Source: Marsupella aquatica (taxonomy: Eukaryota > Plantae > Marchantiophyta). From it: 64,000 bases of DNA. The notes beneath the pieces were generated by a model that saw nothing but the letters and a program-made list of their open reading frames with translations, did not search any database and was not told the origin of the DNA. Positions 11,503-61,149 of the stretch are shown here, in pieces (position 1 is the first letter of the stretch; each line of letters starts with the position of its first letter). The translations under genes were made by a program, and so were the position numbers. The stretch spans positions 1-64,000 of the forward strand of contig CCZZQB010000055.1 in NCBI GenBank assembly GCA_973895155.1. Direction: 5' to 3'.

Positions 11503-14500
11503 ACAGGAATCACTCGACCGGTTAAGTGGGTAAAGCAGGAAGGCACCCTAGGAACACCTTAGTATAGTGACAAAACAAGGAAAATATAAACAATTAGGGG
11601 CAACCATGGAACCCGGGCAGAGGCCGGAGGTAAGGCTGAGGGTGAAAACCCGATTAGGGTTAGGGCGCGTTAAGCGTCGGCGGCTAGGAAGGATCAATGG
11701 GAAGAAGGACCGGCAGAGGAGAGGGGTAAGGAGCGCTTGCAGGAGATGGTGGCTCATTTGCGAGCACGAACTAGGCAGACGACTACGGGAGGCCAACTAC
11801 TGTCAGCTGCTTAGGCAAGCACTCGGGGAGAGAGTAGATACCGACGATCGACCTAAGGAGGGTATGAGCAACGTCAATCAAGCGGCACATTTCTGGGGAT
11901 GCCTGTTCGAACGGGCAACTGAGTACATCAAGACTTACGAGGACGAGGAGTCAGAAAGGGCAGCTCGAGAACGGCAGGAGCTCGCTCGATTGTGGGATCT
12001 GCACAAGACGGCTTTCTTAGGAGGCGAACTCATCAAGGACGAGTTCCTGTGGACGCCTACTTCCAATCAACTCGACGATCTTCTGTTTTGCAAAGACAGC
12101 ATCGTCGGCATCTGAGAGGCCATCAAGAACTGCAACGACATACACTGGGAATTAAAGGGTAGCACGGAAAGGTGGACCCGGGCAACGGTGCTAGGAGAAA
12201 CCTCCACGGCAGCAGAGATGAAGAGGAAGGGAGCCGTCAACGATGAAGCCACCCCGGCAAAAAGAACGAGGTCGGCGGCACCAAAGAAGCCAGCCGAGCA
12301 GCAGAGCAGGAGGCAGGGAGAAGCCGAAGAGGAGGAGGTCGATCCCATCAAGGCCATTCCAACCAGGGATGACACCTGGAAGGGCTGGGCGGCAACCCTA
12401 CCGGTGGAGGTGCAACTACATTTTGCATGGGAGGAGGATGCATGCTTTACGGCCATGCAGACCAAGAAGTACCAAGGCTTCATGGCCGGATCCGGCTTGG
12501 AGGCCTTTGTAAGATTACCATGGCTGAAGCCGGAGGTACCGGAGTCAGACCTATTAGAATTCGTGGGGTCATGGGAACCCGAGACCAATTGCACGAGGAT
12601 ATATGGGAAGGATTTCTATCTTACTCCCAAGGTAATTGCCGAAGTGTTTGGCTTGCCGATGGGCAATAAGACCAAAGTTGATACCAGGAAGACCTTGCCT
12701 GACAAGGAGTTCCGGTCGTTCCCCGGGCCATCAACGAAGAATGGCTTCTTCCGGAACACCTGCACCAACCCGCACATAGGAGAGATGATCGACTTCTTGC
12801 GGGTGACCATGCATTGTAACTTGCCGAGGGCAGAGATCGGCAAGGCACAGGTCTATCTGGCAGAAAGGCCAGACCCAAGCCGGGACTACAACGGGTACCT
12901 CCTCAACCAATTGAAGAAGATCTTAAAGGAGGAGCAGCAGGTAATCGGCATGGGGAGCGTGTCACGGCTTGGCTATCACATGCCGCTGTTGTGCCGGTAT
13001 GCCAGAGGTCAGACTTTTGCCCCGGTACTTCCCCTGCAGGTAAGGGCACCCGAGGAAGCTCCAACACCGAGGCCGTTGGCTGAGAAGCCTCCACCACCTG
13101 TTAGTCCTACGATCGAGCAAGTGTTTAGGCCCAGGAAGGAAGACTTGCCGATGCAGCAACCAGGCATGCAGAGTCTGCTGAAACTACTGGAGAAAGAAAA
13201 GAAATCGGCATCGGCAACAACAACGGCAACGGCAACAATGCAGGACACTACTACAGAGGTAGGCCTACACCGGCTCACAAGAGAAAACCCCTTTGCTGGA
13301 GACAAGGAGAGAATCAGGCCGAAATCCAAGCCAGGTGTTCGAATGTACGTGGGAACCTCAAGCTCCGAATCTGAGGCAGAATTGCCTGAAGCTCCTACCG
13401 ACGAAGAGGAGAGGGAGAAGCCGGACGTCCAAGAAGTAGAGGAGGCAGTGGAGGACTGCAGCCATGATAATTCCGGCTATGGGTCGGACCATGACATTCC
13501 AGGAGTAAGGACCTGTGGCCGGTTTGTCCCCACACTTCCAAGGGTAGTGCGAGGGGACCCCAACCAGCAGAGTAGCCCTGAGTCTCCCCCACCAGATGTT
13601 GCTCCCCCGAGCTTCGACGGCATAAAACAGACGGTGCAGGAATTTCAGGAGCGAATCAAGCAGGAGGAAGAGGCCGCCCTGGCTAAGGAAAAGGATTTAC
13701 CAGGAGGACATTGGCCGGAGGACATCAGGCGGCTAGCCGAAAAAGGAAGCAAACCTCTAGCCACGATTGAAGAGATCCGCAGGACGGCGTGGGAGCAGAG
13801 GCCACGATGGGCGATGCCGATCACTTCTACTTACTCCACCTACGCTAAGAATAGAGCCATGGAGTATGGTGAGATGTGTGGGGAACTTGCGCTCGGCATC
13901 TTTGGAGAGGAGTTGGAGGTAGGACCCTTTTTCCATAGGGAGCAGTTGGAGAAGCACCAATTAGAAGAAGCGGTGGCTTTAGAGAGAAGCAAGAAGGACG
14001 AGGTCATTTGGCGGCTTAGGAGGATGGGAGCCGAGATTGAAGATCTAAGGGCGGCCAAGAAAGCCCAAGATGAACTGCGGATTAAACGACATGAGCTGAA
14101 CATCATGCAGGGGCAGTTGGACGCCGCGCAGGCTGATAATCAGAATATCAAGGATAAACTGACTCAGACGCAGGAAGAGTTGGCCGACACGATCAAAGAG
14201 AGGGAGAAGTGGAAGCAAGAGCTGAAGAATACAGAGGAGGCCCATATAACAGCCAACAGCCGGGCCATGGCGGAGACCCAAAGAAAGGAATGGGCGTTGA
14301 AAGGGGAGCTCGAGAAAATCCGCGGAGCCCTTGAGCAGAAGGAGGTCGAGTTAGGGAAATCCTATCAAGGGATTATGGCGCTGCAGCAGGAGCTTGCGTC
14401 CCTGACGGCCAGCTTCAAGGCCGACCTAAGGGAGAAGGACGAGATGCTCGAACAGACTTACGCCAAGATGAACCAGATGGAGTCTGTCATCATTGCAGAG

Positions 14501-16141
14501 CTCGACAAGGAGCTAAGAGCAACCCAGGAGGAGAGGGCTACCTTGAAGAAGGAATTGGAGGAAGCCCACAGGGAGCAGGAGGAGGCCAAAAACGAGCTGG
14601 AGGGGGCACGTAAGGACCTGGATGAAACCCAAGAGGAGTTGGAGGAAATCACGAGGAAGATGGAGAACCTACAGCGGCGGGCCGACAACCAAACAGAGCG
14701 GCTGAAGAAACAAGCCGCAGTATTTAAATGCTTAGCTGCAGCAGGTCCATCTCCCGTTGGGACAAACCAGTTACCAGGGGTGGTAATTGCTGAAGGACAA
14801 GCCGCGTCAACTGCACCAGTGCCGGAAGTAAGTGGGAAGGGGAAGGGACCAGCTGCCGAGCCACCAACGAAGAAGAAGCGGAAACCTCCAGGGTCAAGGA
14901 GTAATACGACTTCACAGGCCGTGGTGATCAAGGAGGTAGACCCAGCACCGACCCCAGACAGGGTCACGGCTAAGGATCCAACTACCCTAGGGGAAGGGGA
15001 GGCCGAAGCCGAGGGAGTGGCTGAAGCCGAAGCCGTGGGAGTGGCTGAGGCCGAAGCCGTGGGTATTGCCGAGGCCGGTGTCGAGGCTGAAGCCGAAGGT
15101 GGACCCAGTCAGGCCGATGGAGAGTTGACTCGGTCAAGGGCAGGTAATCTGTCAGTAGGCGGGCCAACGGCAGTGGCTGAGGAGGAAGTGTTGGGGGCAT
15201 CCATTGAGGATCCACCACCGGTGTCGTGACGGTGCAAGGGCACCGTTCCTTTTAGGGAAGGCGGACGTGGAGGGAGGAGGCGTGAGTGGGCAGGGCGGGC
15301 GCGGATCTCCACGTTTAGGATTAGGATCAGAACCAGGAGCGGCCCTGACACTTAGCTTAGTGGGATTGCGGTCCCACTGGTAGGAGCAACACTTGTGCTC
15401 CTGCCTTGCTGTACATAGGTAGATTCGGGCAAGTAGATTACTGTTAAGTAGATTAGGCTTACGATGCAAAGAATGGCGGATCCACTACCAGGATAAGTAC
15501 CTGGGCAGCGGGGAGCTCAGGGCCTCTTCTTTAGCAAGTTTTTAGTTTGCACCAGCCGGGCTGGGATCAAGTAGTACGAGAAGCTCTCGGTTAGTCATAC
15601 AGTGACCCTTGTGTATATTCATGTTTCCTCATGCCTAAGAGCTGAATAGAGTTGGCCTCACGGCTTAGTTCGCAGAACTTGTGTATGAGATGTACTGTTT
15701 GTATGGCAAGTGCATGGTATGATTCAGTCAGAATGAGTCATTTTGCTATTTGTGTGTCGCATTAACTTGTGTGAAGAGTGCCCACATCAACAGAAGGAAG
15801 GAAAGTAAGCAGGGGAGTGAGAGTTGGATGTGTCGAGCTGAGAGAGGTCTTAGCGGCTTAACCGAGCCTATTGGGGATCATTCCGGCGGCGGAATCCAAA
15901 CATACCTAACAGGAAGACAGGGGAAGACAGGGGAAGGCCTATATTAGGTCGGCTACGTATCTCATGACCCGATGAAGGATCTGTCCAGTATATGTGTGTA
16001 AAATGTTAATAGTAGTAGTAGAAGGTTAGCAGCGTCCCATGCCGCTAAGCCGCGGAAACGGCCTCGCCAAGCACGAAACCTGCGGGAATCGGCTTGAGCT
16101 GGGGGGTTTCTTGGGTTTAGGGAGCCATGGGACGCACCACA
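11491..16141 (+). repeat. 3' LTR of element A (4651 bp)
   Basis: Direct repeat of 616-5266; TG...CA termini. Confidence 0.95.
11606..15229 (+). pseudogene. Second copy of the LTR-encoded ORF with one premature stop
   Basis: Colinear with 731..4354. CGA>TGA at 12113-12115 splits it into ORFs 11567..12115 and 12188..15229. Confidence 0.88.
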
Positions 16142-16803
16142 AACCCGAGCCGAAGATTCTGAGCGTAATTGAAGCATGGTGTCGTCCAGCTTCTTGAGTT
16201 CGGCCTGCGCTCCGCTTAACTCCTGGGTTAGTCCGTCCCTCTGTTCGACAGTGTGGACTAAATCCTCGCGGCGGGTCGTTGCCTCCTCCTCGAGGTGCTC
16301 TACCAGCATCTGGAGACGCCCGATCTCATTCCCCTTCGCCATGAGTTCTTCTTCCAAGCGGCTGACGATCCGTGGTTGGTGCTCTAACATGAAGAAGGCT
16401 GGCTGAAAGTACGCCGAGACTTGTTGTCCGATGTATGTCGCCAACTCCCCAGACATAGTCTGGCTAAACTTCTGGACCAGGTCGTAGGCCATGGTCCCCG
16501 GGGCTACTTGGTAGTCCTCCATCCTCTCGGGTACCGGTGGTTCCTCGGCAGGGGCAATGAGCTCCTCCGTAGTCAGCGCTGGGGAGGGGAAGGTTTCTTC
16601 AGGTGGTGGAGGGATTGGGGGTGGTTGTACTGCAGGTAGCGGAGGCTCAACGGAAGGAGGTGGTGGAATTTCCACAGGGGGCGGTTGCGGAGTATTAGTC
16701 GGGGCTTCCGGCTCGGGGTTTGTCCGAGGGACAGTAGTCCGCGTAGTCGGGGTTGCCTCCTCTGGGGCGGGGGTGACATTACCCGGGGCTGAGGTGGCCA
16801 TAT
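16142..16803 (-). pseudogene. Family C LTR ORF, C-terminal part (Pro-rich linker plus coiled coil), truncated by element A
   Basis: Joins in frame to 30266 once the DNA transposon is removed (..RREARGKN|MATSAPG..). The coiled-coil part resembles the family B ORF (FSQ..S...YI..V..F). Confidence 0.8.
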
Positions 16804-16829
16804 ATCAGCCTATTCATTAAAAGTGTATT
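16804..16829 (+). repeat. Left terminal inverted repeat (26 bp)
   Basis: ATCAGCCTATTCATTAAAAGTGTATT is the exact reverse complement of 30236-30261. Confidence 0.92.
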
Positions 16830-16854
16830 TTCTTTTGTTCACAAATCAGTCCTG

Positions 16855-16935
16855 AAATGTACACTTTTATGTCCCCAAATGTACACTTTAAGAAGCCCAA
16901 ATGTACACTTTTTGATACCTAAATGTACACTTTAT
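16855..16935 (+). repeat. Left subterminal repeats AAATGTACACTTT (4 copies, 22-bp period)
   Basis: Copies start at 16855, 16877, 16899 and 16921. Confidence 0.85.
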
Positions 16936-17192
16936 AGGCCAAATCTTATTAGTATTATATTAATATATTATCTTATATTAATTATAATAGTATTATATTA
17001 CTTATTAGTTCACAAAGAACCATGGGATAGAGATCATACTTGTAAAAACATTTACGCACAAAGAAGCCTAAGCAAGGACCATTGATTGATAATGTGTGAA
17101 ATAATTATATACAATTGTGTCCAAACTTACAATGAATATCCAGGGCTGGCACCCATTTTTACTATCTAATGGGCTTAACATGAGTCAGATCT

Positions 17193-18405
17193 CTAAACAA
17201 AGTGCTCCTTACAATATTTATTTGAGCACGTGCCCTTGTCTCCTTTACTATCTACCCTAATGTCACGGTTGCAACTCCCTTTATCTTCAGGGAGATGAAA
17301 TTTGGTGGTGTTGTTCCTAACTGCTATAATCTCCCGCAAAAAGTGTCTGGGATTTTCTCTATACAGACCTGAATATTCCCGTCCTACAAATGATCTAGCA
17401 AGTGAGGTGACAAGTGCATCGTCAAGTTCCACCTCAGGACGTAAGCTACATATACGGTGCTTCACAGCCCAAGGAATCTCATTGCTATTGAGGTCCAACA
17501 CACTATGCCTATACTGTGACTTCCAAATTTTTGCTGCACATCTCTTACTAAGTTGATCATAAGTAATCTCATTTTTTGCCTTGTCTCTCTTAATGTGCAA
17601 TAGAGACCACTTTGGAGAGTTTAGGAGAAGATAACAACGAATGTCACTTGCATGTGACAGTTTCTCAAGACATGGCCAAAGAATTGTTAGAAGAAAATTG
17701 TCTCCACGATTGGCATGCGTGTAGGGCACTGGAAATAGTCCGGTCATGTCTGGGTTGGCAAATGCCTTTAAGGGGGAGTCATCCACAAGGAGTGTGTTGG
17801 TTTCATCATATAGATTTCCAAATGCACTCCATACCACCCGAAAATCCTTCAATAGCACATTTGCCTTTCCATTTGTAATGTCACGCCTTTGAATGCCTGT
17901 GTCAAAGGCTTCCACCTGTGTGAATACAAACTTCAGTTTCAACCGCTCCTCAACAGTGAACATCATGTTCAACATTTTCACTGTCCGCGGCATCCCAGCA
18001 CATGTCCAAATTGCAACGTCAAACCGGTCAAAAACCAACTTTAGAAACTCATGGAACCCTGGCCTCTGTGTATACATGCGACTAGTTCCATTTGATCTAT
18101 CCCAATGCACTCCATTTGGGGTCACAATGTTTCTGGATTTGCCCTTGCTTTGGAATTCAAGTGAATCCCAAAGTATTTTGTTAAGATCCAAAATCAGCAA
18201 CTTCCGCTTGATGGGACAAGGTCTCGATTCTGCAAGTGCAACAAATACAACTCTTAGAAAGAAAACCAAATTTGAACTTTGGACTGATTTGAATCTCAGT
18301 CCAAAAATACAAGACAATGACTAACAACAAAGAAAACCTATATACCATTTTTAGAAGCCCCAAAGAGCGTAGGTGGATATCGAGGCTCTAATTGCTGACC
18401 GCATT
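17193..18405 (-). CDS. FCP1/NIF-family HAD phosphatase-domain protein (spliced; start exon unresolved)
   Basis: KLLILDLNKIL (motif I variant), RPGFHEFLKLVFDRFDVAIWT, KDFRVVW, NTLLVDDSPLK. Predicted mini-exon 18405-18346, intron 18345-18230 (GT..TTGCAG), main exon 18229-17193, all in frame. Confidence 0.75.
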
Positions 18406-18466
18406 CTGTGAGACCGAGAAGTATTTTAGATTGGTATGAAAAAATGGAAAGTCAGACGGTTTGATC

Positions 18467-21400
18467 TCAGTCTGAAAAAAGAGATCCGTATTCATCAATA
18501 ATGTCAACACCCAGCTCCTCTTGGATTTCAAAATTGACATCTGAAGTACTTTGTTCTACCCAATAAGGTGACGTCCAAACAGGAGTTATCAATCCCAATT
18601 CTCCTCTCTTATACTCCTTCCTGTTAAGAATCGATGGAGCAGCATCCAATGAAACTTCTTGGCCTCTATTTGGCCCACTTTTCCACACATAACATCGTGC
18701 ATCACGTTCAAGTGACCTCCATCCGGTTGATCCAACTCTATTCCCTTTTTTCTTTGAGAGAGGAAGGACAACTGGACTTCCCGAGTGTGAACGAACAAAA
18801 ACCAATTTGTCATCAGAAGCTGAAAAGAGTGTGTCAGGACAAATTGAAGCACCTGCCTGGTTGTCAACAGTCGCTGATGCACGGGCTTCTGGGGTCATGG
18901 GAATCTCACGTACTTCGACAGCCGTCCCGGGAATCAAATTTTGGGTGTCAGCTTCATTCGAATTGACCTGTCTGTCTCCACCGTCCGCGACCAAATTGGT
19001 TGACGAACAATTTTCAAATGTATCAATGTCAATCGGATCATCAATTCCGTCCATTTCTCGTTGCACCACATTTGGATTGAGACCATCCTTGTCCAAGTTG
19101 TCATCAACCTCAACTTCATAGGGTTCCAAAGGGACGTCATCTGCACGTGATGAAGGGCGTGGTGCAAGACCAACGTTATCATCAACATCGTAGGGTTCTA
19201 TGCTTTCACTTTGACCTACACGGTCATCCAAATTCTTTGCATACGCCACCTCTGATGCCCCATCATCTTTGACTGACTTAGCGCCCACTTCTTTGGAATT
19301 ATCAGCTGATTCATGTTCGGTAGAAACATCCGCAATAGTGGGTTTCCAATGCCTAGAACTCCCACCACGAGGATCCCAATTTTCCTTGATTGAGGGGACC
19401 CTCTCGCAAAGGAATGAAGCATACGCTTCCACAAAGTGTCTCTCATCTTGAGAGTCACAATAAACAAAGCATTCGCGTTGCACCAAGAATGCTGTCTTCA
19501 TCACTTGACCACCCGAGAAAAAATCAAGAATCAAGTCTCCAGCTTCTGACAAGGATTCAATAATCCTCTGTATCATCCGCGTGGGTTTGGCATGTGGATT
19601 CACCCAACCACCACGAGCACCAACTATCTCAAATCGAGGGGCCATGTGCAAAACCTTGGTCGCCTCTTCTGGGGTCAGCATCATTTTTAGATCTTCGGGT
19701 TTTGACACGTCGTCTATGTCAACCTTTGCCTTCCCAGTGTCAATCTTGGTGACCTCAAAATCAGTATCTTTTGAACCAAAAAAGAATTTTGGCTTTGGGT
19801 GATTGGGTTTGAAAACATCATTCCAATTCACATTTTCATCTCGAGAAATTCCTGCAAATATAACTTCTTCAATTCCGCCTCCCCAACACGAATCAAGCGG
19901 GTGCGGTTGATCCTCTCGAGAATAACTCCCATACTCAATGTGAATGGTGAGAGATTTCTCTTGTCCCAATTTTCGAAGTGAGCTTAGGACATTCATTGCA
20001 AGAGGCCCCGGATGAACAGTTATGGCTACAACGATTGTAAGATTTTGTGGTAGCTCCACAATGTATTGCAGAAAGACCAAAACTTCTGCTTCCGTCCACA
20101 GCTTCTGGTGATCTCGACTGAAGTCAACAATGGCAAGTGAGCACGTTGGAGATGATTCTTCTATTGCTGGTGGATCAACTGTTTTCATTAGATTGTCACT
20201 AAAGAACGTGACCCACGGTTGGCTCCGAGAATGTGTCCCTCCGCCAAACTTCTGGCAATAAATATCATCAAGGCGCATCACCAGAGCTATTGGCAAGATT
20301 GCACTCTCCCTGGTATGATTTGGCTTCAACAGATTTGACAAAAAAACTTCACCAGCCGCTCTTCTGCATCTACTGAATTCTGCGTCAACACTCAACAATG
20401 GCAGAACCTCTACAACTTTCTTCCAATCGGTATCCGAAGGGAAATTCCTTGGATCCTTGCCGAAGTAGTACTCCTCAATGAGAGACTTGAGCTTCCTCAC
20501 TTTTTTCACATCCTTCGCAAGCTCCTCTATTGAGGGTATGTCAGATTTATTTGTGGCATCTTTCTTCAGCAATGCCTTTCCTGACTTCACTTGTGTCAGG
20601 ATTTTTGTGATGTCTTTCTGTGAGATCAACTCACCATCAAAGGGACGAAACATGGCAACGGTAATTGCTTTTTCGGACTTGTTATTTCCTTCCATCCCAG
20701 CTCCATCAGGAAGTTTCCCATGCAACCACATCTCACAGACTAACCGCCACAACTCAAAAAGATCGTTGTCCACAAAAAGTAGCCAGTATACATTTCGCAA
20801 GTCCTTCCTGCCCATAGTCATTCTTGCCAGAGCCAACCAATCCTACAATCCAAAAGGAAAGCTAGTCAGTTATCCCCAACGCAAGGGTTGGAAAAAAAGG
20901 ATTCTAATGTGTGATAATAGTATTGGATTCGGATGGTCTCAATCAAAAAGAAAACTCGTACTAAACATTCCAAAAGTTCCAATACTCTTTGACAAATCGT
21001 GTCGGACTGAGACCATCCGAATCCAAAATAGAATTACTCTCTATGGTAGAGAAATGCATACAAAGTAATCACATTTCTTACCTGAAATTTTTGGTTGTCT
21101 TGAGCATTTGTTTTGTTGTCGCCATGTTTTGGTTTGTCTGGATTTCCATATTCAACAAACTGCCGCCTCGCATGGACAACTGTATCTTTAAAGCAAGATT
21201 GAAACACCATCGTGCTATTGATGGCGTTTGATCTCATGGAGTGCTCAACAAGAATTGAAGACGGTGTGCGATCAGACAATATTCTGGATTTCCTGAATTC
21301 TAACTTCTTGGCCAACTGGGTGAGCTTGGCATCCTTCGTTGCCCAATCACGAATCCATCTCGCAGCTCTCGCAGAGTGCTGACCACTAACGGCTAGAAAT

Positions 21401-23621
21401 TGGACCTCGCCCTTTTTCACTCCGGCCAAAAAATCCTTCCGGTCCGACTCCGTATTCTCAAAGTGGAGTACCTTTCTTTGCTCGACGTTAAAAGGAATCA
21501 AATCAGCGACATGTGGCTCATGCCCAGGTGTTTTGATCATGGAATCAGCAATGTCTTGCACATGATCAAAATTCATCATCCGATAGCATAGTCTCGCTGG
21601 TGCGGCAAAAATACTTTCAACTGGGATCAGAAAAATTTCGTTTATCCCAAAAGTATAGTACTGCTCCATTTGTTGAAGAACTTCATTCCCTTCTAAGACG
21701 TCTTTCTCCTCTGGAGCATGTGGCCTATCACTCTCATCTTCAGCATGTAATGAAAAATCTATAGGAGTTGAATTCACAACTCCGGTGTCGGTTTTTTGTT
21801 TCTTCTTCTCCCTCGACTTCTTCTCGGCTGGAAGCTTCTTCTTCTCGGCTGGAAGCTTCTTCTTCTCGGCTGGAGCCGTGATCTTCTTCTCAACTGAAGT
21901 AGGTTTCTCAACCAGAAGCTTCTTCTCCCTCTGCTTTCGCTTCCCTGCCGCTCTATCCATGGTTGTTGTTGCAGTAGTTTGTGCTGTCTCCGTCGTAGTT
22001 GCTGGAGTTCCTTTGGCTGGCGTAGACTCAATTATTTTCTGTGGTTGTGTACTTTTCCTCAACTTCACCAAAGACTCTACCCATAGATTTGCTTTTTCCA
22101 GGTCAAGCGTGTGTGCAAAGGCTAGTGCCTTGGCGATCCAAACATTTGAGTCTGGTGACACCAGACCTGCTTTCTCAAGCAAATTGTTAAGAGTCCATGT
22201 GGATGGAAGAGAGAACTTTGATGGGTTGTTTACAATGTTGAGTTTCAAATAAAGAAACCCATAAAAAATGTCCAAAGGAAGCATTCCCTTCAGTCCTCCA
22301 ATAATCTTCTCCTTTGTGTAGGATTTTGGAAAGAATCCCATCGACAACACACTTAATTCCCCACTTGCATACCATTCCACATTGAACTCGGCCGAGAAAG
22401 CCTTTGTGGGGAGCTGCAACTTTGCCCACCTCATCGTGTCCGACACCTCTACAATGATAGAATTCATTCCTCTTCCTATCATTCCCACAGAGACCACGGG
22501 TCCGATGACCAATGTTTGGTTGTTGCCTGTCCTGATCTTGACACATAACACTGGATCCTGAATGTTAAATGAATTCAGGCGGAAGTTAACTCGCGAGAAC
22601 TCAAGTCCCCACCGAAATCCTGGATCGCGGTCCTCCAAAATGAGCCCATCGTCGCAGTCTGCCTCTGAAATGGCGAGAGTTGTATTCACCAGATCACTCT
22701 CTGCATTGGAGAGTGAAAATTCATATTAGACTTCAAATCCATGAAATTTGTTTTAAGAAATCACTGTCAAAGTGAGATTGAAGGCTCTTGGATTCGGACC
22801 ATCCGAATCCAATACAAGAAGCCCACTTGGATTCAGATGGTCCGAATCCAAACAACCCTCTTAGATTCGGACCATCTGAATCCAATCAAGCCACTTGGAT
22901 TTGGACCATCCAAATCCAAACAACCCACTTGGATTCGGATGGTCCGAATCCAAACAACCCTCTTGGATTCAGACCATCCGAATCCAATCAAGCCACTTGG
23001 ATTCGGACCATCCAAATCCAAACAACCCACTTGGATTCGGATGGTCCGAATCCAAACAACCCTCTTGGATTTGGATGGTCCGAATTTAAACAACCCTCTT
23101 AGATTCAGACCATCCGAATCCAAACAACCGACTTGGATTCGGATGGTCCGAATCCAAACAACGCTCTTGGATTTGGACCATCCAAATCCAAACAACCCAC
23201 TTGGATTCGGATGGTCCGAGGTTGTTTGGATTCGGATGGTCCGAATCCAAACAACGCTCTTGGATTTGGACCATCCAAATCCAAACAACCCACTTGGATT
23301 CGGATGGTCCGAATCCAAACAACCCTCTTGGATTTGGATGGTCCGAATTTAAACAACCCTCTTAGATTCAGACCATCCGAATCCAAACAACCCACTTGGA
23401 TTCGGATGGTCCGAATCCAAACAACGCTCTTGGATTCGGACCATCCGAATCCAACAACTTAAGATGCATGAATAAACCTCCGGGAACTTACTTTGGACTT
23501 GAGATTGAAATTCTTGGGAATCCCTAAGCGCTAGGGCCACAAGATCACCGACAGAGGAGAGATCCAAGTCATCAGATTCTTCGGCGAGTAGGACGATGAC
23601 GGTTTTCTTGGAAACTTCCAT
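18467..23621 (-). CDS. Three-exon gene (~1374 aa): ParB/Srx-like domain plus degenerate beta-class N6-adenine/N4-cytosine DNA methyltransferase-like domain
   Basis: Exons 23621-23492, 22700-21082 and 20842-18467 join in frame with GTAAGT..TGCAG and GTAAG..TGTAG introns. ParB-like: IPVESI..R..N.DHV..IA.SM..FLAVSGQHSARA. MTase-like: NPHAKPTRMIQRIIESLSEAGDLILDFFSGG..AFLVQRECF. Confidence 0.72.
22788..23454. repeat. Palindrome array 1: ~20 units of TTGGATTCGGA-(CCA/TGG)-TCCGAATCCAA with ~9-bp spacers
   Basis: Units about every 34 bp in mixed orientation. Lies inside predicted intron 1 (23491-22701) of the ParB-MTase gene. Confidence 0.92.
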
Positions 23622-23633
23622 TTTTAGGAGTGA

Positions 23634-23639
23634 CACGTG
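23634..23639. promoter_or_regulatory. G-box/ABRE-like CACGTG next to the start of the ParB-MTase gene
   Basis: TGACACGTGGC at 23631-23641, in the region between two divergent genes. Function not established. Confidence 0.25.
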
Positions 23640-23744
23640 GCAGGATATACTGAGGACACGTCAAGATGGGCAAGATCTAGGGCGTTGCAGCAGATTAGGG
23701 CAAGAAGGCAATTAGGGCAAGGGCAAGGGATATCAGCGGCAGCC

Positions 23745-23968
23745 AGCCAAGAGCGAGAGCGAGGAGCGAGAATGAGGAGCTAGAGCGAGAGCGAGGAGCG
23801 AGAGGGAGGAGCGAGAGTGAGGAGCGACAGAGAGAAAACAACAATGAGGTCTGTGGAAGACCTCATCCTCCCTTTACCCCCTCCTGAAAGGCTTGTTTGC
23901 GTACGGATGATCGCTGCACGGATCATCTCTGTACGGATCATCTCTGTACGGATCATCTCTGTACGGAT
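23745..23968. repeat. GAGC/GA-rich microrepeats and 4 tandem 15-mers (CGGATCATCTCTGTA) in the putative bidirectional promoter
   Basis: GAGCGAGAGCGAGGAGCGAG repeats at 23745-23830. 15-bp units at 23904 (degenerate), 23919, 23934 and 23949. Confidence 0.75.
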
Positions 23969-24552
23969 AGAGACCAAGAAGGGATCTGGTCCTATCAGTT
24001 TGGGTGGGACGCTAGCTGTATTGTCTGACACAATGGATTGAAAAAGGATTGGATGATTGTTCTAACCGCGATACTCGGTGTTGCCTCAACCTTATCGGAT
24101 CGCACATTCAGGGCCGAACATACCAACCCACGAGTATAAGAGGTACTCTACGGACATCATTGTTGTTTTAGTTTCATATCTTCACTTGGGCATCCAGGTC
24201 TGCGCAACTCCTCCTCAGCTCTTCTCTCTGATGGAGTTTAGACTTGAAGTGGCTTTGATAGCTTTCTTAGTCAGATTGATATGAACTTATTCATCAATTT
24301 AGAGGTAGCAGAGCCAACCTTGGAGACATACTGGAAAAACAAGACTGCTGAGGTGAGTTATGGTCTTAGTCGCTTTGCTTATTTTGAGTTCTTAGGGAAG
24401 AGAGACGAACCCTTTCACTTTGTTCTGCATTCTAGTGACTTCCCAATTATTATTTCACGAATTACCCAATGTTCCGAAAAACCCGGAATGTCTAAATTTG
24501 ATTAGGAAGAGATCTCAATCTCAATATATCCATCTCAACATAATCTTCATTG

Positions 24553-25745
24553 TGGAGTTAGACCATTTGAATCCAGACTTGATGTGTGGATTATAATGGT
24601 CCTAATCCTAGATTGTTGTTTGGATTCGGATGATCCAAATCCAATCCATTTCTAGGATTGGGACCATCTGATCAGATTCCAATCTTGGTTTGGATTCGGA
24701 TGGTCCGAATCCAAGAGGGTGTGTTGGTCCGAATCCAACCGTGCAATGCTTAAATTGTGACCTTTGGGATCCAATCTCGGTTTGGATTCGGACCATCCCA
24801 ATCCAAGCGAGATGGTAAATACAGTCTGGTTTTTGATTTGGATGGTCCGAATCCAAGAGGGTGTGTTGGATTCAGACCATCCGAATCCAAGCGTGCAATG
24901 CTTAAATTGTGGCCTTTGGGATCCAATCTCGGTTTGGATTCGGACCATCCCAATCCAAGCAAGATGGTTGAATTTGGGCGTTTTAAATACAGTCTGGTTT
25001 TGGATTCGGATGGTCCTAATCCAAGAGGGTGTGTTGGATTCGGACCATCCGAATCCAAGCGTGCAATGCTTAAATTGTGACCTTTGGGATCCAATCTCAG
25101 TTTGGATTCGGACCATCCCAATCCAAGCGAGATGGTTGAATTTGGGCGTTTTAAATACAGTCTGGTTTTGGATTCAGATGGTCCGAATCCAAGAGGGTGT
25201 GTTGGATTCGGACCATCCGAATCCAAGCGTGCAATGCTTAAATTGTGACCTTTGGGATCCAATCTCAGTTTGGATTCGGACCATCCCAATCCAAGCGAGA
25301 TGGTTGAATTTGGGCGTTTGAAATACAGTCTGGTTTTGGATTCGGACCATCCCAATCCAAGCCGGTTTGTTGAATTGGGACCTTCGGGATAGAATCTGTG
25401 TTTGGATTCGGACCATCCGAATCCAAGATGGTGGGTTGGATTCGGACCTTTGAAATACAATCTGGTTTTGGATTCGGACCATCCGAATCCAAGCCCGGTG
25501 CTCAAATTGGGACCTTTGAAATAAAATCTGGGTTTGGATTCGGACCATCCCAATCCAAGCGCGTTTGTTGAATTGGGACCTTTGGGATCCCATCTGGGTT
25601 TGGATTCGGACCATCCAAATCCAAGAGGGTGTGTTGGATAGAGGTTGGTTTGGATTCGGACGATCCCAATTCAAGCGAGATGCTTAAATTTGACCTTCGG
25701 AATAAAATCTTCATGGTTTTGATTTGGACCACCGGCCCCAATCCA
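24553..25745. repeat. Palindrome array 2: about two dozen units of the same 25-bp palindrome with a 168-bp higher-order repeat
   Basis: The landmark GCGTGCAATGCTTAAATTG recurs at 24891, 25059 and 25227. The array lies between a GTGAGT donor (24353) and a TGTGCAG acceptor (25869). Confidence 0.9.
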
Positions 25746-25861
25746 AGCGTGATAGTTGAGCCAATGTTTGGATTCTCGGAATGGCAATCAAATGACCGTA
25801 TGGATAATTGTGAGTCTCTTCAAATTCTTGTCATTCGGATTTGTGATGGTTTTTCTGAAAA

Positions 25862-28800
25862 TTGTGCAGGTTACTAAATCCGAGAATGACTGGAAGGTTT
25901 TCAAGAGGTGATGATGTGACCTTGACAATTGATGGATATGATGTCGGTTGTGGGACAGTTCAGAAAATTAACCCCCAGGATAGGGTGCACAACATATTGT
26001 TGGGGGATAATCGAATTGGTGTGCTCGTGGAGAAGGTTTTCGAGCCAACTCGAAAACTACCATTTCCACTACCAAGGGTAGAAAATCTTTTTGATGCCAT
26101 TGACTCATGTGTTATTTGGGAGATCTCGTGCGCGTATCTCTCTATAACTCTAGATTCCCAAAAACGCATCAGTACTGGTAGTTGTTCAACTCGACCAGAT
26201 AATAACTTGGATAAATCTCCTACAATTGTTATGGAGGATGCATCAAACACTCTAAGGCAAGGGGACGAGGTTGAAATGCTCATTGATGGGTGTTGTGTAG
26301 CCCTTGGAGTTATTTTCAAGGTAAATCCAAAGGACCGATGTCACAACATATTACTTGGTGAGTCTCGGATCAGTGTGAAAATCACTGATGTTATTCATGG
26401 TAGTAAGGCTTTACCTTACATACACAATGGGGCTGAAACAATTGAAGAGGCAAAAGACTCATGGGTTCTCTGGGACTTGGCCGATGTTCATAAAAAAGGT
26501 TGGAATGTTGATGAAGGTAGAAAGTCTTCCTCTAAGAAGCAAGGTGATGGCGACGTTTTAATTGAGGAGAGTTTTGTCTCACATTCTCCATCAACAAAAT
26601 CGACCAAAACTCATTCTGATTATTACCAACGGTCCAATTGGATGTCAGAGTTGGTCGAATTATACATTGGTTCAGGACGATCGAGTAAGGTTGCCACTGG
26701 GACTATCACTGTGCCTCAAGCAACGGCGGCTGTTGATGATGAAATCCTGGGAGAAGACTATGTAGGGGTTGCTGTGAAAGATGTCATGGAATCGCAATAC
26801 TTTCCAAGCATTCACAAGGGAGTAATTAGTTTGGTTCGATGGCGAATTGATCACACAAAACTAGTAGCAACTGGAAAATTTTTGTCAGACATTCTGGTAG
26901 AAGGTACAGAGAATATGGAGTCAATGGATAGGGATGATCTGAATCCGGATCATGTGGTTGGATCCGCATCCGGATGTCGTCAAAGGCCATATAACTTCAA
27001 CAAGAGGAATCAAGTTGATCCTGTTGAGAAGAAAAGGAGGCTCTTGCAAACCAAGGCAGTTTCAAAAACAACAGAAGCCGCAATTGATGAGATCAAAAGA
27101 GTAAATTGCTGCAAGCATAAATGTTGTCTCATTATGCCAAGGGAAGATATAGAAGATGTTAGGATGGAATTTCACGGGATGTCTAGCGAGTCCAAAACAT
27201 CACACATTTTCAACCTCTTCCACTACAGAGAGGATGATGTTCGTGATAAGGGACACCATGTTCTCAAAGGTATGGTCATCTGTAAAGATGCATTTGCAAC
27301 CATCCATGGTTTTAGTCACACCAAGTATTATGATTACAAGAGAAGATACATGGAGGGTTGCAAAATTGGGTTCCATGGGAACACAGGCTTGAAGAAAACA
27401 AGGTCAAATACCTTGCATGTGCGAGCTCTTCTAGAGGCATTTCTGACTCAAAATGCAGAGCCAATGCCTCATATGCCTTATGGAGGGGCTCATGGGACAA
27501 ACAGCATTGAGTATCGACTTCCAGCGTGTTACAAAAAGTTAGAGATTTTGGAAGATGTGAGAACAAAGATGAAGGAAGAAGGGCTTCCTCCTGTTACGGA
27601 TAACACTCTCTACAAGATATGGAGCACATCATTTGCAAACTTCAGTTTTCACAAGGATGGCGCATTTGCCAAGTGTACGCTTTGTTGTGAATACAAAGAC
27701 AGTTTGATGCGAGAGAGAAGGAAAAAAGAACGTGCTGAAATTGAAGAAAAAAGAGCTCAACATCTTCGTGAGCAAATGTCACGTAGATATGTTTACTACG
27801 CTCATCGAGTGATGGCCAAGCAACATCCAAGAGAATATCTTTGCATTATTCATGACAAGATGGATCAAGCAAAGACATGGATTCCAAAAATGGTTAGTAC
27901 TCCTAAATCACTTTCGGGTCATGGAATGCCGCTACCTATCGCTCTCACGGGGATGTTGACCCACGGGAGAGATCCAGGAGTATATGCACACTTTAGTGTC
28001 ACTGGCCTTTGGCCAGGAGATGCAGATTTCACAGTGACATCCTTGGCTAAGTGTCTTCGAGATCTTGAAGAGTACAATGGAGACAAGACAGGTGACATGC
28101 TTGATGGCTTGCATTGGGAACCTCACAGACCTTTCTTTCAAGCCCTACTTGACTTTGATGCATTTTTGTCAGGATATTTGGAACCAAAGAATATTCAAGT
28201 AAATAGGTATATTGGTTCTGAAGATGGAGCTGCCGACAGTCAGACTGAGACCATCCCAACCCGACAGGATGAGGATGATGGAGGGGACGTGGGTGGTGAG
28301 AAGGGCAGTCCGTTGTTCATGCCCTTGCCAAGGCACCTAACATTGCAAATGGATAATTCAGCAAAGGACAACAAAAACCAAACGGTCATGGCATTTTGCT
28401 CGGAGCTTGTGAGTAGAGGAATATTTGAAACTGTTCAAATGTCCTTTCTAATGGTTGGTCATACGCACGAAGATGTTGATGCACTATTTTCCAAGGTATC
28501 ATATCAAGTTCAGCACAAGGAAGTTGCAACCCTTCTTGCACTAATGGCAGAGGTTTGGGAATGTGAGAGCATTCATCCAGTTCCAAGATTGATACAAGAA
28601 GTTGCATCTTACAAAGAATATCTTCAAAGTTTTAAGGTCAAAGATATTCAAGGTCACTCAAAACCGGTATCATTTCTTTTCTCTATGAGAGATAATGTAC
28701 CAATATTTCAGTATAAGTCCCATGTTAAGCAAGCTTGGGCTCCCGTTGGCGGAAGGTGCATTTGGGCAACTGATCCAATAACAAATTCTCTTCTTTTACC

Positions 28801-29677
28801 CAGTGGACAACCCTTAGCTAAATCCATAGGAGAGATACACAAAAAATCAGAAGAGATAATCCCATTCCTTAACAAGTACCTTGATTTTTTGAGAAGGAGT
28901 TGCATTGATGAGACGTCAATAGCATACAAGGAAAGATTTCCTCTTGTTAAATATTGGGAAAGAATTGTGGAGCTGTTGTCAAATGGGCTTGCAATGGAAG
29001 GGGAGGGAAATAATCAATTTCCATTGAAAAATGGATTTTGGCCTAAGACTAACCACAGCACTGGTTACAAGGTCAACCAATCGGCATGCGAACAGAGTGG
29101 TCCTCTAAGTGAAGATGAGGAGAATGCAGAGATGACAGCTCTTCAAAATGAAGTCTTGGAAGAGATGGAAGATCAAGCAGCACCATTTGTTGGATCTCGA
29201 GCTGAGAGAGAACAAGGACAGTGGATTCCCCTCCAGGATATTTGTGAAGGAAACTTTGTGTTTCTTCGACCCGAGGATGATTGGGAGAAGAAAAATGGTG
29301 GAGGTCATTTCTGGTTGGTGAGAGCTTTGGGTCAGGTGGACCCTAAGCATGAAGTCCCAATTGCATCTTCAAGAGACCCTCCTTTGACTCAACAATATGC
29401 TCCAATGTTCCCCATGGAATGGTGGAGGCCTAAACACTCTAAACTTGATGTGAGTGAGAGTGCTAGGTATCTCAATTGTTTCATGTCCACCAAGACATGG
29501 GAACGAGATCCAGGATTTGGTGAGAACACTCAACATTGGCAGTATGCAAATTCTGCAATGTATGGTTTTAAATCTGGAATGAAGGAAGAAAACATGGTTG
29601 GCAGAGGTTTGAAGATTCCTCGAAATGTTCTACAAACTGTCCAAAGTTATCTCCAAAGGATGGACAAGTACACTTAG
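25862..29677 (+). CDS. Sola-like DDD transposase (~1260 aa) with three N-terminal Tnp1/En/Spm-like repeats
   Basis: FAKCTLC..H..R..Y, IHDKMDQ, LQMDNSAKDNKN, FLMVGHTHEDVD. First ATG at 25887; the ORF-track start is preceded by a likely splice acceptor. No internal stops. Confidence 0.85.
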   Translation: MCRLLNPRMTGRFSRGDDVTLTIDGYDVGCGTVQKINPQDRVHNILLGDNRIGVLVEKVFEPTRKLPFPLPRVENLFDAIDSCVIWEISCAYLSITLDSQKRISTGSCSTRPDNNLDKSPTIVMEDASNTLRQGDEVEMLIDGCCVALGVIFKVNPKDRCHNILLGESRISVKITDVIHGSKALPYIHNGAETIEEAKDSWVLWDLADVHKKGWNVDEGRKSSSKKQGDGDVLIEESFVSHSPSTKSTKTHSDYYQRSNWMSELVELYIGSGRSSKVATGTITVPQATAAVDDEILGEDYVGVAVKDVMESQYFPSIHKGVISLVRWRIDHTKLVATGKFLSDILVEGTENMESMDRDDLNPDHVVGSASGCRQRPYNFNKRNQVDPVEKKRRLLQTKAVSKTTEAAIDEIKRVNCCKHKCCLIMPREDIEDVRMEFHGMSSESKTSHIFNLFHYREDDVRDKGHHVLKGMVICKDAFATIHGFSHTKYYDYKRRYMEGCKIGFHGNTGLKKTRSNTLHVRALLEAFLTQNAEPMPHMPYGGAHGTNSIEYRLPACYKKLEILEDVRTKMKEEGLPPVTDNTLYKIWSTSFANFSFHKDGAFAKCTLCCEYKDSLMRERRKKERAEIEEKRAQHLREQMSRRYVYYAHRVMAKQHPREYLCIIHDKMDQAKTWIPKMVSTPKSLSGHGMPLPIALTGMLTHGRDPGVYAHFSVTGLWPGDADFTVTSLAKCLRDLEEYNGDKTGDMLDGLHWEPHRPFFQALLDFDAFLSGYLEPKNIQVNRYIGSEDGAADSQTETIPTRQDEDDGGDVGGEKGSPLFMPLPRHLTLQMDNSAKDNKNQTVMAFCSELVSRGIFETVQMSFLMVGHTHEDVDALFSKVSYQVQHKEVATLLALMAEVWECESIHPVPRLIQEVASYKEYLQSFKVKDIQGHSKPVSFLFSMRDNVPIFQYKSHVKQAWAPVGGRCIWATDPITNSLLLPSGQPLAKSIGEIHKKSEEIIPFLNKYLDFLRRSCIDETSIAYKERFPLVKYWERIVELLSNGLAMEGEGNNQFPLKNGFWPKTNHSTGYKVNQSACEQSGPLSEDEENAEMTALQNEVLEEMEDQAAPFVGSRAEREQGQWIPLQDICEGNFVFLRPEDDWEKKNGGGHFWLVRALGQVDPKHEVPIASSRDPPLTQQYAPMFPMEWWRPKHSKLDVSESARYLNCFMSTKTWERDPGFGENTQHWQYANSAMYGFKSGMKEENMVGRGLKIPRNVLQTVQSYLQRMDKYT

Positions 29678-29897
29678 TTGTCACTAGCTAAGATATAATT
29701 AGATAGTTACTAGTTTTTATGTAAGAGTTATATATATTGTGAGACCATGCCATTGAGTGTTTAGTTACTTAGTAGACTATCTACTCATTTTCTAAACTTT
29801 TGATTATTATGAATATGAATGTTTATTTTTTCTGCATAATTAAAAATATTTTTTATTAATTTCTTTATTTTAAATGATTACAATAAAAGTTTTCAGG

Positions 29898-30225
29898 AAA
29901 ATGTACACTTTTTAGGCCAAATGTACTCTTTATTGCACTCAAAGCTACACTTTCTAGACTAAATGCACTGAAATGTACACTTTTTAAGCCAAATGTATCT
30001 TTTTTTCACTCAAATGTACACTTTCTAGGCCAAATGTACTAAAATGTACACTTTTTAAGCCAAATGTACATATTTGGATGCTCAAATGTACACTTTTCAT
30101 TGCCCAAATATACACTCTTTAGACCAATTGTACACTTTTTTATCCCCAAATGTACACTTTTCATTGGTCAAATGTACACTTTTCCAAGCCCAAAAGTACA
30201 CTTTTCATTGCCCAAATGTACATAA
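29898..30225 (+). repeat. Right subterminal repeats AAATGTACACTTT (~16 copies, mostly 22-bp period)
   Basis: Starts include 30062, 30084, 30106, 30126, 30148, 30170, 30192 and 30214. Confidence 0.85.
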
Positions 30226-30235
30226 ATCAAATAAT

Positions 30236-30261
30236 AATACACTTTTAATGAATAGGCTGAT
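30236..30261 (-). repeat. Right terminal inverted repeat (26 bp)
   Basis: AATACACTTTTAATGAATAGGCTGAT, followed by the ATAT target duplication. Confidence 0.92.
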
Positions 30262-30265
30262 ATAT

Positions 30266-31721
30266 TCTTTCCTCTGGCCTCCCGCCGTGCCTTGTACCAG
30301 GCGAGGATAATGGCGATATGACTCCCCAAGTAAGTCTTCCCTCCAATAGCCATACCACCCTGAGCCCGCTTCAGCTCCCCCGAGAATCTTCGGTAGAAGA
30401 ATTGGGCCTAGTTTCGTCGTTTGTACTGTTCCACCTGCACTATCGTGCAGAGGGAAATCTCGGATCGTGGCTCAATCATGTGTAGGGTAGTCCGTATGAA
30501 GTTAAGCCGCTCCATACAGGTTAAGTTGGTGCACGCCCCCTGCTTGTATCCGTTGTCCGTCTTACCCTCGGGTTTGAAGTGCCGCGGCGTATACTCCTTA
30601 TCCCGAATTCGGATTTCCACCGGCACCGGCCCGGTTGGTAGGCCAAAAATTTGCGTTAACCGATGCTCCGTGAGTGATAAGGTCTGCCCCGAAACCTTGG
30701 TGGTTGACGCATCAGTGTCGAAATTGGAGATGAACTTACAAATCTCCTTCGGCCCGGCGGCGCACGGCCTCCATAGTAGGTGGGCGAACCGCTCCAACTG
30801 ATGCTCCTTGAGATAGTCCGCATGTTCGAGTTTCTTGATCGCGATCCAGACTACCTCGGGGACGCGGATTACCTGTAATAAGTTGGACTTCGGGTTATCC
30901 GGGGGCCGTCGGGTCTGGTTGGTCGGGGGGTTTGCCGGGGCAGGTGCAGGCGCGGCGTCGGTCCGTGTTGATTCGGGGGCCGTCGTAGTCCTTGACCGCT
31001 TACGAGGATGCTGTTCGAGTTGCGGACTAGCTCGCTCGAAACCCGAAGAACACTCCGCGTTGATTACTGGACGGACTTGGGACTGGTTTGGCGGTACTCC
31101 GGTGGTCATCGGTTGAGGCGCTGGGGTAGCCATATCCCAGTTGAAGGCGTTGGAGCTTTCCCCGAGGAACGTGAGATTACGCGCCGCTTCCCGTTGTCTG
31201 CTGATGTCTTCTTGGCACTTTTCGGCTGCGATCTGCTGGTCTAGGTACCCCGGGATCTTGTCGAACTCCGCTTGAGTAAGCCGCTGGTTGCCCTTCAGCT
31301 TAAAGAACTTAGCTGGAACCTCAAGAATCGCCTCTACTACCGATCTAAGCCCTTCCTCGCTGAGATATAGTTCGGTGATGTAGTCTCGCAGCTCGTTATA
31401 GCTAGAATCCCTGGTGATGGCTGTCCTTTCGCAATTAACCAGTGCTACCTTGGTTACCAGCTTCGCGTACCTTCGTTCGTAAGCGGCTTTCTCGGGGCAA
31501 GAGTACCAGTAAGTCTCGGAGAACTTAGCACCTACCTCGCCAAACAAGGTCCAAAATCCCAAGGCTGTGAGGGTCATACTAACCTCGTAGTCCAGTTCGT
31601 TGCGTCCACGTTCCCACCTGGCTGGTCCTTTTTCGCGGAGGCCTCGCTCGTCCTGACTAAATCTTGCCACATTCCGCTCTTCTCCCTCGATAATTTCCTC
31701 GTAAAGGTCGACTGGATTCAA
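30266..31721 (-). pseudogene. Family C LTR-encoded ORF (N-terminal part)
   Basis: ORF 30408..31721 (FAHLLW..KFISNF..QIFGLPTG..DNGY..C). It continues in frame after a single TGG>TAG at 30408-30410 (W in family B), then is interrupted by the Sola element. Confidence 0.8.
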
Positions 31722-61011: not shown

Positions 61012-61149
61012 CCGACGCTAGTAAGGGAAGTGAGGAATTTAATACACTTTATTATCAATGTAACATAAACCAATCATAAGTGGGATAATGAATACATGTA
61101 TTTTGATAACAACGCCCAGTGCTGGTAAAATCTTAGCCGCAAAAACTCT

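What the first reader, a model, noticed from the sequence alone, without database searches (positions are those of the whole stretch)
22788..23454. Array of a perfect 25-bp palindrome filling intron 1 of the ParB-MTase gene (parS-like?)
Seen: ~20 units of TTGGATTCGGA-CCA/TGG-TCCGAATCCAA (11-bp arms, 3-nt loop) at ~34-bp spacing, flipping orientation, bounded by in-frame splice sites at 23491 and 22701. Nearly all unit variants are C>T or G>A at the two CpGs (TTTGGA, TTCAGA, TCTGAA, TCCAAA). Established: ParB proteins load at palindromic parS sites. Inference: these could be binding or loading sites, or methylation substrates, for the element's own ParB-MTase, giving autoregulation. Alternatively they yield hairpin RNAs or siRNAs from the excised intron.
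Basis: partly seen in the sequence, partly recalled or inferred. Interest (0 to 1): 0.78.

Follow-up and report, generated by a model that had tools for sequence, protein, structure and literature searches.

The report
Liverwort transposon's own palindrome docking array
A 13.5-kb jumping gene, likely from a liverwort, carries 44 copies of one 25-base mirror-image DNA word only in its non-coding parts, and related DNA keeps the word and its 34-base spacing while swapping the letters in between, so the word is likely a docking site for the element's own predicted ParB-shaped helper protein, a design already proposed for seaweed transposons.

Summary
The array is real: 20 units of an interrupted 11-3-11 palindrome at 34-bp spacing fill 667 of 791 nt of a predicted intron. 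It is one part of a larger design. The host is an intact-looking 13,458-bp Sola1-type DNA transposon (26-bp TIRs, ATAT target duplication, empty site seen in other runs), probably of a liverwort. The same dyad occurs 22 more times upstream of the transposase and twice in intron 2, and nowhere else in the window. Contigs from other runs keep the dyad on the same 34-bp lattice with different spacers (9 of 11 joins exactly 9 nt), which favours selection over a neutral minisatellite. The accessory protein has a ParB_N-like fold (shown on a homologue) and a beta-class methylase fold, but lacks the methylase catalytic motif (0 of 110 family sequences) and ParB's GxxR. Best reading (0.55): binding sites for this protein, used for self-recognition and probably anti-silencing; not methylation substrates, not true parS. 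Binding is untested. ParB-methylase cargo on Sola1 (Ectocarpus) and ParB plus inverted-repeat arrays (Bostrychia) are in print, and this scan noted the same kind on other DNA.

The parts
22788..23454 (.). Array 1: 20 units of TTGGATTCGGA-(CCA/TGG)-TCCGAATCCAA on a 34-bp lattice, in predicted intron 1 of the accessory gene
24586..25674 (.). Array 2: 22 units with up to 6 mismatches plus decayed units on a 32-36-bp lattice, amplified as 168-bp and 66-bp higher-order repeats; upstream of the transposase ATG, probably in a 5'UTR intron (donor-like site near 24353, acceptor-like near 25869; predicted)
20923..21026 (.). Two degenerate dyads in predicted intron 2 (20843-21081) forming a 22-bp inverted pair with matching changes in both copies
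16804..30261 (.). Whole DNA transposon, 13,458 bp, 26-bp terminal inverted repeats, 4-bp target duplication ATAT, inserted in LTR-retrotransposon-like DNA
   Evidence: empty-site joint 16799>30262 with 4 shared letters in runs X1 and X5
23492..23621 (-). Predicted exon 1 of the accessory gene (ATG at 23621)
   Evidence: in-frame join only; no RNA, no homologue covers it
21082..22700 (-). Exon 2: unknown N-terminal domain, lysine-rich linker, ParB_N-like domain (SGQHS at 21387-21373)
18467..20842 (-). Exon 3: helical region, beta-class amino-methyltransferase fold (motif IV position DFSR 20125-20114; motif I DFFSGG 19525-19508), acidic linker, conserved C-terminal domain
   Evidence: intron 2 position matched by spliced homologues P0060 and P0083
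25886..29677 (+). Intact 1263-aa DDD transposase (DUF7869), head-to-head with the accessory gene
17193..18230 (-). NIF/FCP1-like phosphatase reading frame whose DxDxT motif reads DLNK; acceptor-like AG at 18230
16855..16933 (+). Left subterminal repeats of a different motif (AAATGTACACTTTT)
29898..30222 (+). Right subterminal repeats of the same different motif; likely transposase sites (inferred)

Best explanation
The array is likely a cluster of DNA binding sites for the transposon's own accessory protein, a predicted ParB-fold protein fused to a likely inactive methylase, which would let the element recognise its own copies and likely keep its central two-way promoter free of host silencing. 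Shown: the dyad sits only in the element's non-coding DNA, on both sides of the divergent promoter; dyad sequence and 34-bp spacing persist while spacers are replaced; the methylase lacks its catalytic motif; synonymous CpGs are about twice as well kept near the arrays as at the element's ends. Inferred: a dimer reads the two 11-bp arms; arrays grow by slippage and local inversion and are kept because many sites give specificity; bound protein blocks or helps remove 5mC, as VANC does on VANDAL.
For: Confinement: 49 exact half-sites inside the element, 0 in the other 50.5 kb of the window, all in the two arrays or intron 2. Lattice kept: of 11 direct dyad-to-dyad joins listed for contigs of runs X3, X4, X7, 9 have a 9-nt spacer, one 8, one 10; two more are 43 = 9+25+9; the letters differ from the window's spacers (e.g. 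CTGCCGGTG against ACAACCCTC). Position kept: a dyad lies 18-19 letters from the intron-1 5' end in X4, X5, X7 (joint 23251>23471). Protein: homologue P0060 (60% identical) aligns to ParB_N and DndB clusters at TM 0.54-0.65 and scores 0.91 to ParB_N clusters by features; exon 3 folds as a beta-class methylase (Z 18.1 to CcrM, rmsd 3.4, 219 aligned). CpG retention near arrays: NCG codons 55 of 399 against 17 of 231 (p 0.014), C3|G1 62 of 305 against 16 of 165 (p 0.003), non-CpG controls p 0.84 and 0.17; rho -0.71 with distance, n 20. Precedents: VANC binds tandem motifs in introns and intergenic DNA (PMC5735166, passages); self-binding proposed for algal ParB cargo.
Against: No binding, methylome or RNA data. 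No sequence-specific DNA-binding domain was identified in the protein; in true ParB the HTH, not ParB_N, reads parS (recalled; consistent with passages). My own model of the ParB-like domain was poor (pLDDT 47.6), so the fold rests on a homologue. The joins are selected for holding the dyad (they had to align), only 12 of 45 and 12 of 60 such rows were shown, and most cannot be tied to a particular intron or element. The CpG grouping was made after seeing the gradient, and promoter proximity explains it equally; Ty3 reading frames in the window keep as many CpGs (C3|G1 0.31-0.34). All 21 changes in array 1 are deamination-type, so the array has been methylated at times. The dyad's own CpG columns are its least conserved (0.61, 0.77).
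Confidence: 0.55

Rival explanations
1. A neutral or selfish palindromic minisatellite: a dyad that seeded itself in the element's introns, amplified by slippage and kept symmetrical by arm-to-arm copying, with no protein partner.
For: Clear slippage history (102-bp, 168-bp, 66-bp higher-order repeats), a local inversion at 23201-23250, three units with the same change in both arms, many decayed units in array 2.
Against: Copying between arms or units does not explain why the same 25 letters and a 9-nt gap survive while spacers are replaced across related DNA, nor why the motif is in three separate non-coding regions and in no exon.
Confidence: 0.15
2. The function is at RNA level: opposite neighbours pair into 25-30-bp stems in the intron RNA, giving siRNAs or controlling splicing, which would damp the element's own expression.
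For: Intron 1 folds at -461 kcal/mol, z -23 against 20 shuffles; 14 of 19 neighbours are opposite; the intron-2 pair keeps a 22-bp stem with matching changes in both copies; the two arrays share one dimer polarity relative to their own transcripts.
Against: Any palindrome array folds this way. A stem needs pairing, not a fixed sequence, fixed CCA loop (43 of 44 units keep the two C's) or a fixed 34-bp period.
Confidence: 0.12
3. The sites are bound by the transposase or by a host factor rather than by the accessory protein.
For: The transposase N-terminus has a weak TNP1/En/Spm-like match (E 0.00039, just under the curated cut-off), and transposases can activate their own copies (bioRxiv 10.64898/2026.08.24.746577, passages).
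Against: The element already has a separate subterminal motif at both ends where transposase sites are expected; the dyads flank the accessory gene and promoter instead.
Confidence: 0.1
4. The dyads are substrates of an active element-encoded methylase that writes 4mC or 6mA (each dyad has two CpG and two GANTC sites), protecting the element from 5mC.
For: SAM-binding motif I is kept; the Asp of motif IV is kept in 20 of 20; the closest fold is CcrM, a GANTC methylase. 4mC exists in liverwort sperm (bioRxiv 10.1101/2021.02.12.428880, passages).
Against: The [DNS]PP[YFW] motif is absent in 110 of 110 family sequences (many are fragments; 20 aligned ones cover the site). A 15%-identity fold match says nothing on specificity.
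Confidence: 0.08

Closest known systems
Sola1-1_Ec32 of Ectocarpus (PMC12477816; passages and supplement rows seen)
   Same: Giant Sola1 element, 4-bp target duplication, accessory gene on the strand opposite the transposase encoding ParB-like plus N4/N6 methylase domains; self-binding proposed.
   Different: Brown alga, 21.5 kb, 282-bp TIR. 'palindrom' does not occur in the main text and its one supplement hit is another family. The paper predicts an active methylase; here motif IV is lost. Sequence homology to the Ectocarpus protein was not tested.
Plavaka PAG3 of Bostrychia (bioRxiv 10.1101/2025.02.11.637652; passages seen; supplements closed)
   Same: ParB-like accessory gene with tandem arrays of inverted repeats beside it; the authors propose that it binds and modifies its own element.
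   Different: Red alga, EnSpm superfamily; ParB is fused to a 2OG oxygenase and the methylase is a separate gene. Motif and spacing are not given in the passages seen.
VANC/VANDAL anti-silencing of Arabidopsis (PMC5735166 passages; PMC10398659 abstract)
   Same: Element-specific motifs in tandem repeats in introns and intergenic DNA; accessory protein; local CG hypomethylation.
   Different: Mutator-like host, 8-9-bp non-palindromic motifs, unrelated protein; function shown by experiment there and only inferred here.
Bacterial ParB/parS and ParB-like regulators of mobile elements, BisD and KorB (PMC12409273, passages)
   Same: ParB_N fold; long dyad sites (one bisS candidate type has 11-bp arms); gene regulation of a mobile element from dyad loading sites.
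   Different: GxxR and ENxxR are replaced by GQHS and SNxxN; no HTH identified; no ParA; 44 sites rather than a few.
Marchantia MpDN4MT1 and rotifer N4CMT (10.1101/2021.02.12.428880, PMC8885841; passages)
   Same: Beta-class amino-methyltransferase fold in a eukaryote.
   Different: Those are host genes with an intact catalytic motif (TSPPY in Marchantia); this is transposon cargo without it.

Membership tests
Sola1 DNA transposons | DDD transposase | tested here: met
   HDKMD, QMDN, GHTHEDVD in the window; the three motifs found in 50, 51 and 52 of 55 sequences. That this triad is Sola's is recalled from Bao et al. 2009, not held.
Sola1 DNA transposons | 4-bp target duplication AWWT | tested here: met
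   ATAT on both sides, empty site in X1 and X5; AWWT named as Sola1 hallmark in PMC3845634 (passage)
Sola1 DNA transposons | Terminal inverted repeats | tested here: met
   26-bp perfect TIR
Sola1 DNA transposons | Clusters with reference Sola1 transposases | not testable with these tools
   No Repbase set on hand; named homologues are labelled DUF7869 only
ParABS / parS | ParB_N fold | tested here: met
   On homologue P0060: TM 0.54-0.65 to ParB_N and DndB clusters, predicted models on both sides; weak DndB hit E 0.031. Own model uninformative.
ParABS / parS | CTP-binding motifs GxxR and ENxxR | tested here: not met
   GQHS in 8 of 9 and RQHS in 1 of 9; second motif SNxxN or similar; canonical motifs as in PMC12409273
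ParABS / parS | HTH domain that reads the site | tested here: inconclusive
   An all-helical region follows the ParB-like domain but fold searches were filled by the methylase domain
ParABS / parS | 16-bp parS consensus and a ParA partner | tested here: not met
   25-bp unrelated dyad; no ParA-type Pfam match among the element's reading frames; no exact match in 185,579 prokaryote genomes
Beta-class N4/N6 DNA methyltransferases | Fold and motif order IV before I | tested here: met
   Model pLDDT 80.9; top matches CcrM, BceJIV, MboIIA, RsrI, PvuII; profile hit to RsrI E 2.5e-9
Beta-class N4/N6 DNA methyltransferases | Catalytic motif IV [DNS]PP[YFW] | tested here: not met
   DFSR, DFGR, DFTR, DLT etc. 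in 20 of 20 rows that cover it (3 of 23 rows do not); 0 of 110 family sequences carry the motif
Beta-class N4/N6 DNA methyltransferases | SAM-binding motif I FxGxG | tested here: met
   Variant DFFSGG, conserved; 36 of 110 mostly partial sequences include it
VANC/VANDAL anti-silencing | Element-specific motif in tandem in non-coding regions | tested here: met
VANC/VANDAL anti-silencing | Mutator-like host element and VANC protein | tested here: not met
   DDD/DUF7869 transposase, 4-bp TSD; accessory protein is ParB/methylase-shaped
VANC/VANDAL anti-silencing | Protein binds motif and lowers methylation | not testable with these tools
   Only indirect CpG retention
Algal ParB-cargo transposons (Sola1-1_Ec32, Plavaka PAG3) | ParB-like accessory gene with modifying-enzyme fold, opposite the transposase, with inverted-repeat arrays nearby | tested here: met
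Algal ParB-cargo transposons (Sola1-1_Ec32, Plavaka PAG3) | Common descent of the accessory protein | not tested
   The algal sequences were not fetched

The most novel reading that the evidence does not exclude
A land-plant transposon has rebuilt a bacterial ParB/parS-type loading system as an anti-silencing device: a ParB-fold, dead-methylase protein loads on phased 34-bp dyad arrays flanking the element's two-way promoter and spreads over several kilobases to keep host 5mC off, with every family evolving its own dyad. That would be a third independent anti-silencing system after VANC and TnpA, and a portable protein-plus-25-bp-site tool for keeping plant transgenes unmethylated.
Probability: 0.25. 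Interest if true: 0.8.

Novelty: new variant of a known kind. Interest (0 to 1): 0.52.

Why it matters
Transposon-borne ParB-like proteins have been proposed to bind their own elements in brown and red algae, but the passages seen give no target sequence or test. This element supplies an intact-looking protein, an exact 25-bp candidate site, a spacing rule and a cross-family conservation signal in a plant group with a tractable model (Marchantia), so the proposal becomes directly testable. The loss of the methylase, CTPase and phosphatase catalytic motifs suggests binding without catalysis, which changes the expected mechanism from 'writes its own mark' to 'blocks or redirects the host's mark'.

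Tried and rejected
No genome is held for this window, so no genome-wide motif count was possible. Exact motif scans found nothing in viral contigs, prokaryote genomes, or, as a two-unit pattern, metagenome contigs. Searches for loci encoding the ParB-like domain found none in metagenome (265 pattern matches, none confirmed) or viral contigs (86, none), so I could not read whole related elements or test motif-protein co-evolution. No RNA holder was listed; this is no evidence on expression. Rfam: 0 matches in 16800-30300. My AlphaFold model of the ParB-like domain was low confidence and its fold search gave nothing above Z 3.0. Pfam, PHROGs, NCBIfam and PDB sequence searches did not name the ParB-like domain; the Atlas feature search on the window's own domain gave unnamed fungal and DUF3723 clusters at 0.95-0.96, and no paper held both DUF3723 and ParB. 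Phage tblastn gave only weak methylase hits. The homodimer prediction for P0060 returned no verdict. Low contig depth over the arrays in X5 and X6 was not used as evidence. Rejected: CRISPR-like array (spacers 9 nt and repetitive), MITE cluster (no target duplications around units), tRNA/structured RNA family. Literature searches for a land-plant report; none listed one, but most subscription papers are not held, Iyer et al. 2011 and Bao et al. 2009 were not read, and bioRxiv supplements are closed.

Full report
1. Observation. The array exists as described: period 34, 20 copies, 22785-23458. Each unit is an 11-bp arm, a 3-nt loop (CCA in 10, TGG in 10) and the complementary arm; 17 of 19 intervals are 34 bp. 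Twenty base shuffles of the window gave no match at up to 4 mismatches. It is an interrupted dyad: 8 of 19 complete units are consensus. All 21 substitutions are C>T or G>A; 14 are at the CpGs. The flanking GT (23491) and AG (22701) join a 130-nt exon in frame, and with a second intron (21081-20843) give 1374 aa. Intron 2 is matched by spliced homologues that run across it; exon 1 has no support beyond the frame.

2. Setting. The gene lies in a DNA transposon at 16804-30261 with 26-bp TIRs and the duplication ATAT. Contigs from runs X1 and X5 join 16799 to 30262 with 4 shared letters, the empty site. The element has an intact 1263-aa DUF7869 transposase with a conserved DDD triad, head-to-head with the accessory gene, and a NIF-like frame. 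Named homologues are from Riccia, Calypogeia, Physcomitrium and Ceratodon, so the host is probably a liverwort (inferred). A 4-bp AWWT duplication is the Sola1 hallmark (PMC3845634, passage).

3. The motif is element-wide and non-coding. It occurs 20 times in intron 1, 22 times (up to 6 mismatches) upstream of the transposase, and twice in intron 2. Exact half-sites: 49 in the element, 0 in the remaining 50.5 kb. The two arrays mirror each other round the divergent promoter. The element's ends carry a different repeated motif. Exact scans of viral, prokaryote and metagenome collections were empty.

4. Evidence for selection. Across the 44 units, 23 of 25 dyad columns are at least 84% conserved and flanking columns 36-61%; this is partly circular because units were picked by the dyad. 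Less circular: contigs of other runs hold the dyad with other letters between units. In one search, 10 of the 12 rows shown (of 45) join dyad to dyad; 8 have a 9-nt spacer and 2 have 43 = 9+25+9. In one search, 3 of the 12 rows shown (of 60) do, with 8, 9 and 10 nt. The tables list gaps up to 40 letters, so the 9 is not forced. One joint in X4, X5 and X7 (two coded organisms) places a dyad next to the 5' end of intron 1, and an X4 contig with 51 differences in 374 letters runs from exon 2 into the array. Limits: contigs without the dyad cannot show up as joins, and most joins cannot be placed in an element.

5. The protein. Exon 3 folds confidently (pLDDT 80.9) as a beta-class amino-methyltransferase (CcrM Z 18.1, then BceJIV, MboIIA, RsrI). 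Motif I is kept as DFFSGG, but motif IV is DFSR or similar in 20 of 20 rows covering it and the canonical motif is in 0 of 110 family sequences: likely a pseudo-enzyme. The SGQHS domain of exon 2 resembles ParB_N/DndB by the predicted structure of a 60%-identical homologue (TM 0.54-0.65); the CTP motifs GxxR and ENxxR are altered in 9 of 9. The NIF-like frame also lacks its catalytic motif. No site-reading domain was identified.

6. Methylation footprint. CpG observed/expected falls from 0.5-0.86 in the centre to 0.25-0.40 towards the ends. At synonymous positions CpG is about twice as frequent near the arrays (p 0.014 and 0.003; controls not significant) and falls with distance (rho -0.71, n 20). 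The grouping is post hoc, promoter proximity is an equal explanation, and an earlier scan note (e1-10602133) reported the same pattern on another element.

7. Mechanism. Most likely the arrays are operator-like sites for the accessory protein, which as a dimer would read the dyad, concentrate on its own element through many phased sites, and hold the central promoter open against 5mC (0.55). Shown: anatomy, confinement, conserved lattice, folds, lost catalytic motifs, CpG gradient. Inferred: binding, dimer, anti-silencing. Rivals: neutral palindromic minisatellite (0.15); hairpin RNA (0.12; intron folds at z -23, and the intron-2 pair keeps a 22-bp stem); transposase or host factor (0.10); active 4mC/6mA writing (0.08).

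8. What is known. A ParB-like plus N4/N6-methylase gene opposite the transposase is described for Sola1-1_Ec32 of Ectocarpus (PMC12477816, passages and supplement rows). ParB-like cargo with tandem inverted-repeat arrays and proposed self-binding is described for Bostrychia Plavaka elements (bioRxiv 10.1101/2025.02.11.637652, passages). VANC binds tandem motifs in introns and lowers methylation (PMC5735166, passages). BisD is a ParB-like clamp that regulates a mobile element from dyad sites (PMC12409273, passages). Iyer et al. 2016 lists other ParB-methylase links (PMC4738411, passages). It works like VANC or BisD in layout but is a member of neither; it fails the ParABS and active-methylase tests. 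Four searches listed no land-plant report. This scan noted the same kind on other pieces of this genome and in other genomes, some with different palindromes; those notes are unchecked, and one led me to read the Ectocarpus paper, which lowered my novelty rating.

9. Verdict. Real feature, new variant of a known but untested kind: land-plant Sola1 element, triple loss of catalytic motifs, an exact 25-bp site with a conserved 34-bp phase. Interest 0.52; if the ParB-derived anti-silencing reading holds (0.25), 0.8.

Noticed in passing
window 61050-64000: A second, degraded element with an N6_N4 methylase fragment (61547-62152, E 0.0012) unrelated by tblastn to the first; its putative intron holds three 43-bp direct repeats (63043-63171) and an inverted partial copy (62951-62972) of a different motif. 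Possibly the same design with another site; cut by the window end.
   Followed up: partly
window 16855-16933 and 29898-30222: The subterminal repeats at the two ends read in the same direction on the + strand although the terminal repeats are inverted.
   Followed up: no
window 17193-18230: The NIF-like frame has no near start codon but an acceptor-like AG at 18230; by eye homologue P0124 carries methylase and NIF-like parts in one chain, so alternative splicing may fuse them here.
   Followed up: partly
window 18467-18900: A conserved C-terminal domain of about 110 aa in the accessory protein family, with no Pfam match.
   Followed up: partly
window 21900-22700: A conserved beta-rich-looking N-terminal domain of the accessory protein with no Pfam match; a candidate for the sequence-reading part.
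   Followed up: no
window 616-5266, 11491-16141, 43441-48025, 56451-61011: Very long (about 4.65 kb) LTR-like repeats carrying long reading frames without Pfam match, around Ty3-type gag/pol; first pair 98.8% identical.
   Followed up: no
window 25886-27000: The transposase N-terminus has three repeats of a small domain with a weak TNP1/En/Spm match.
   Followed up: partly
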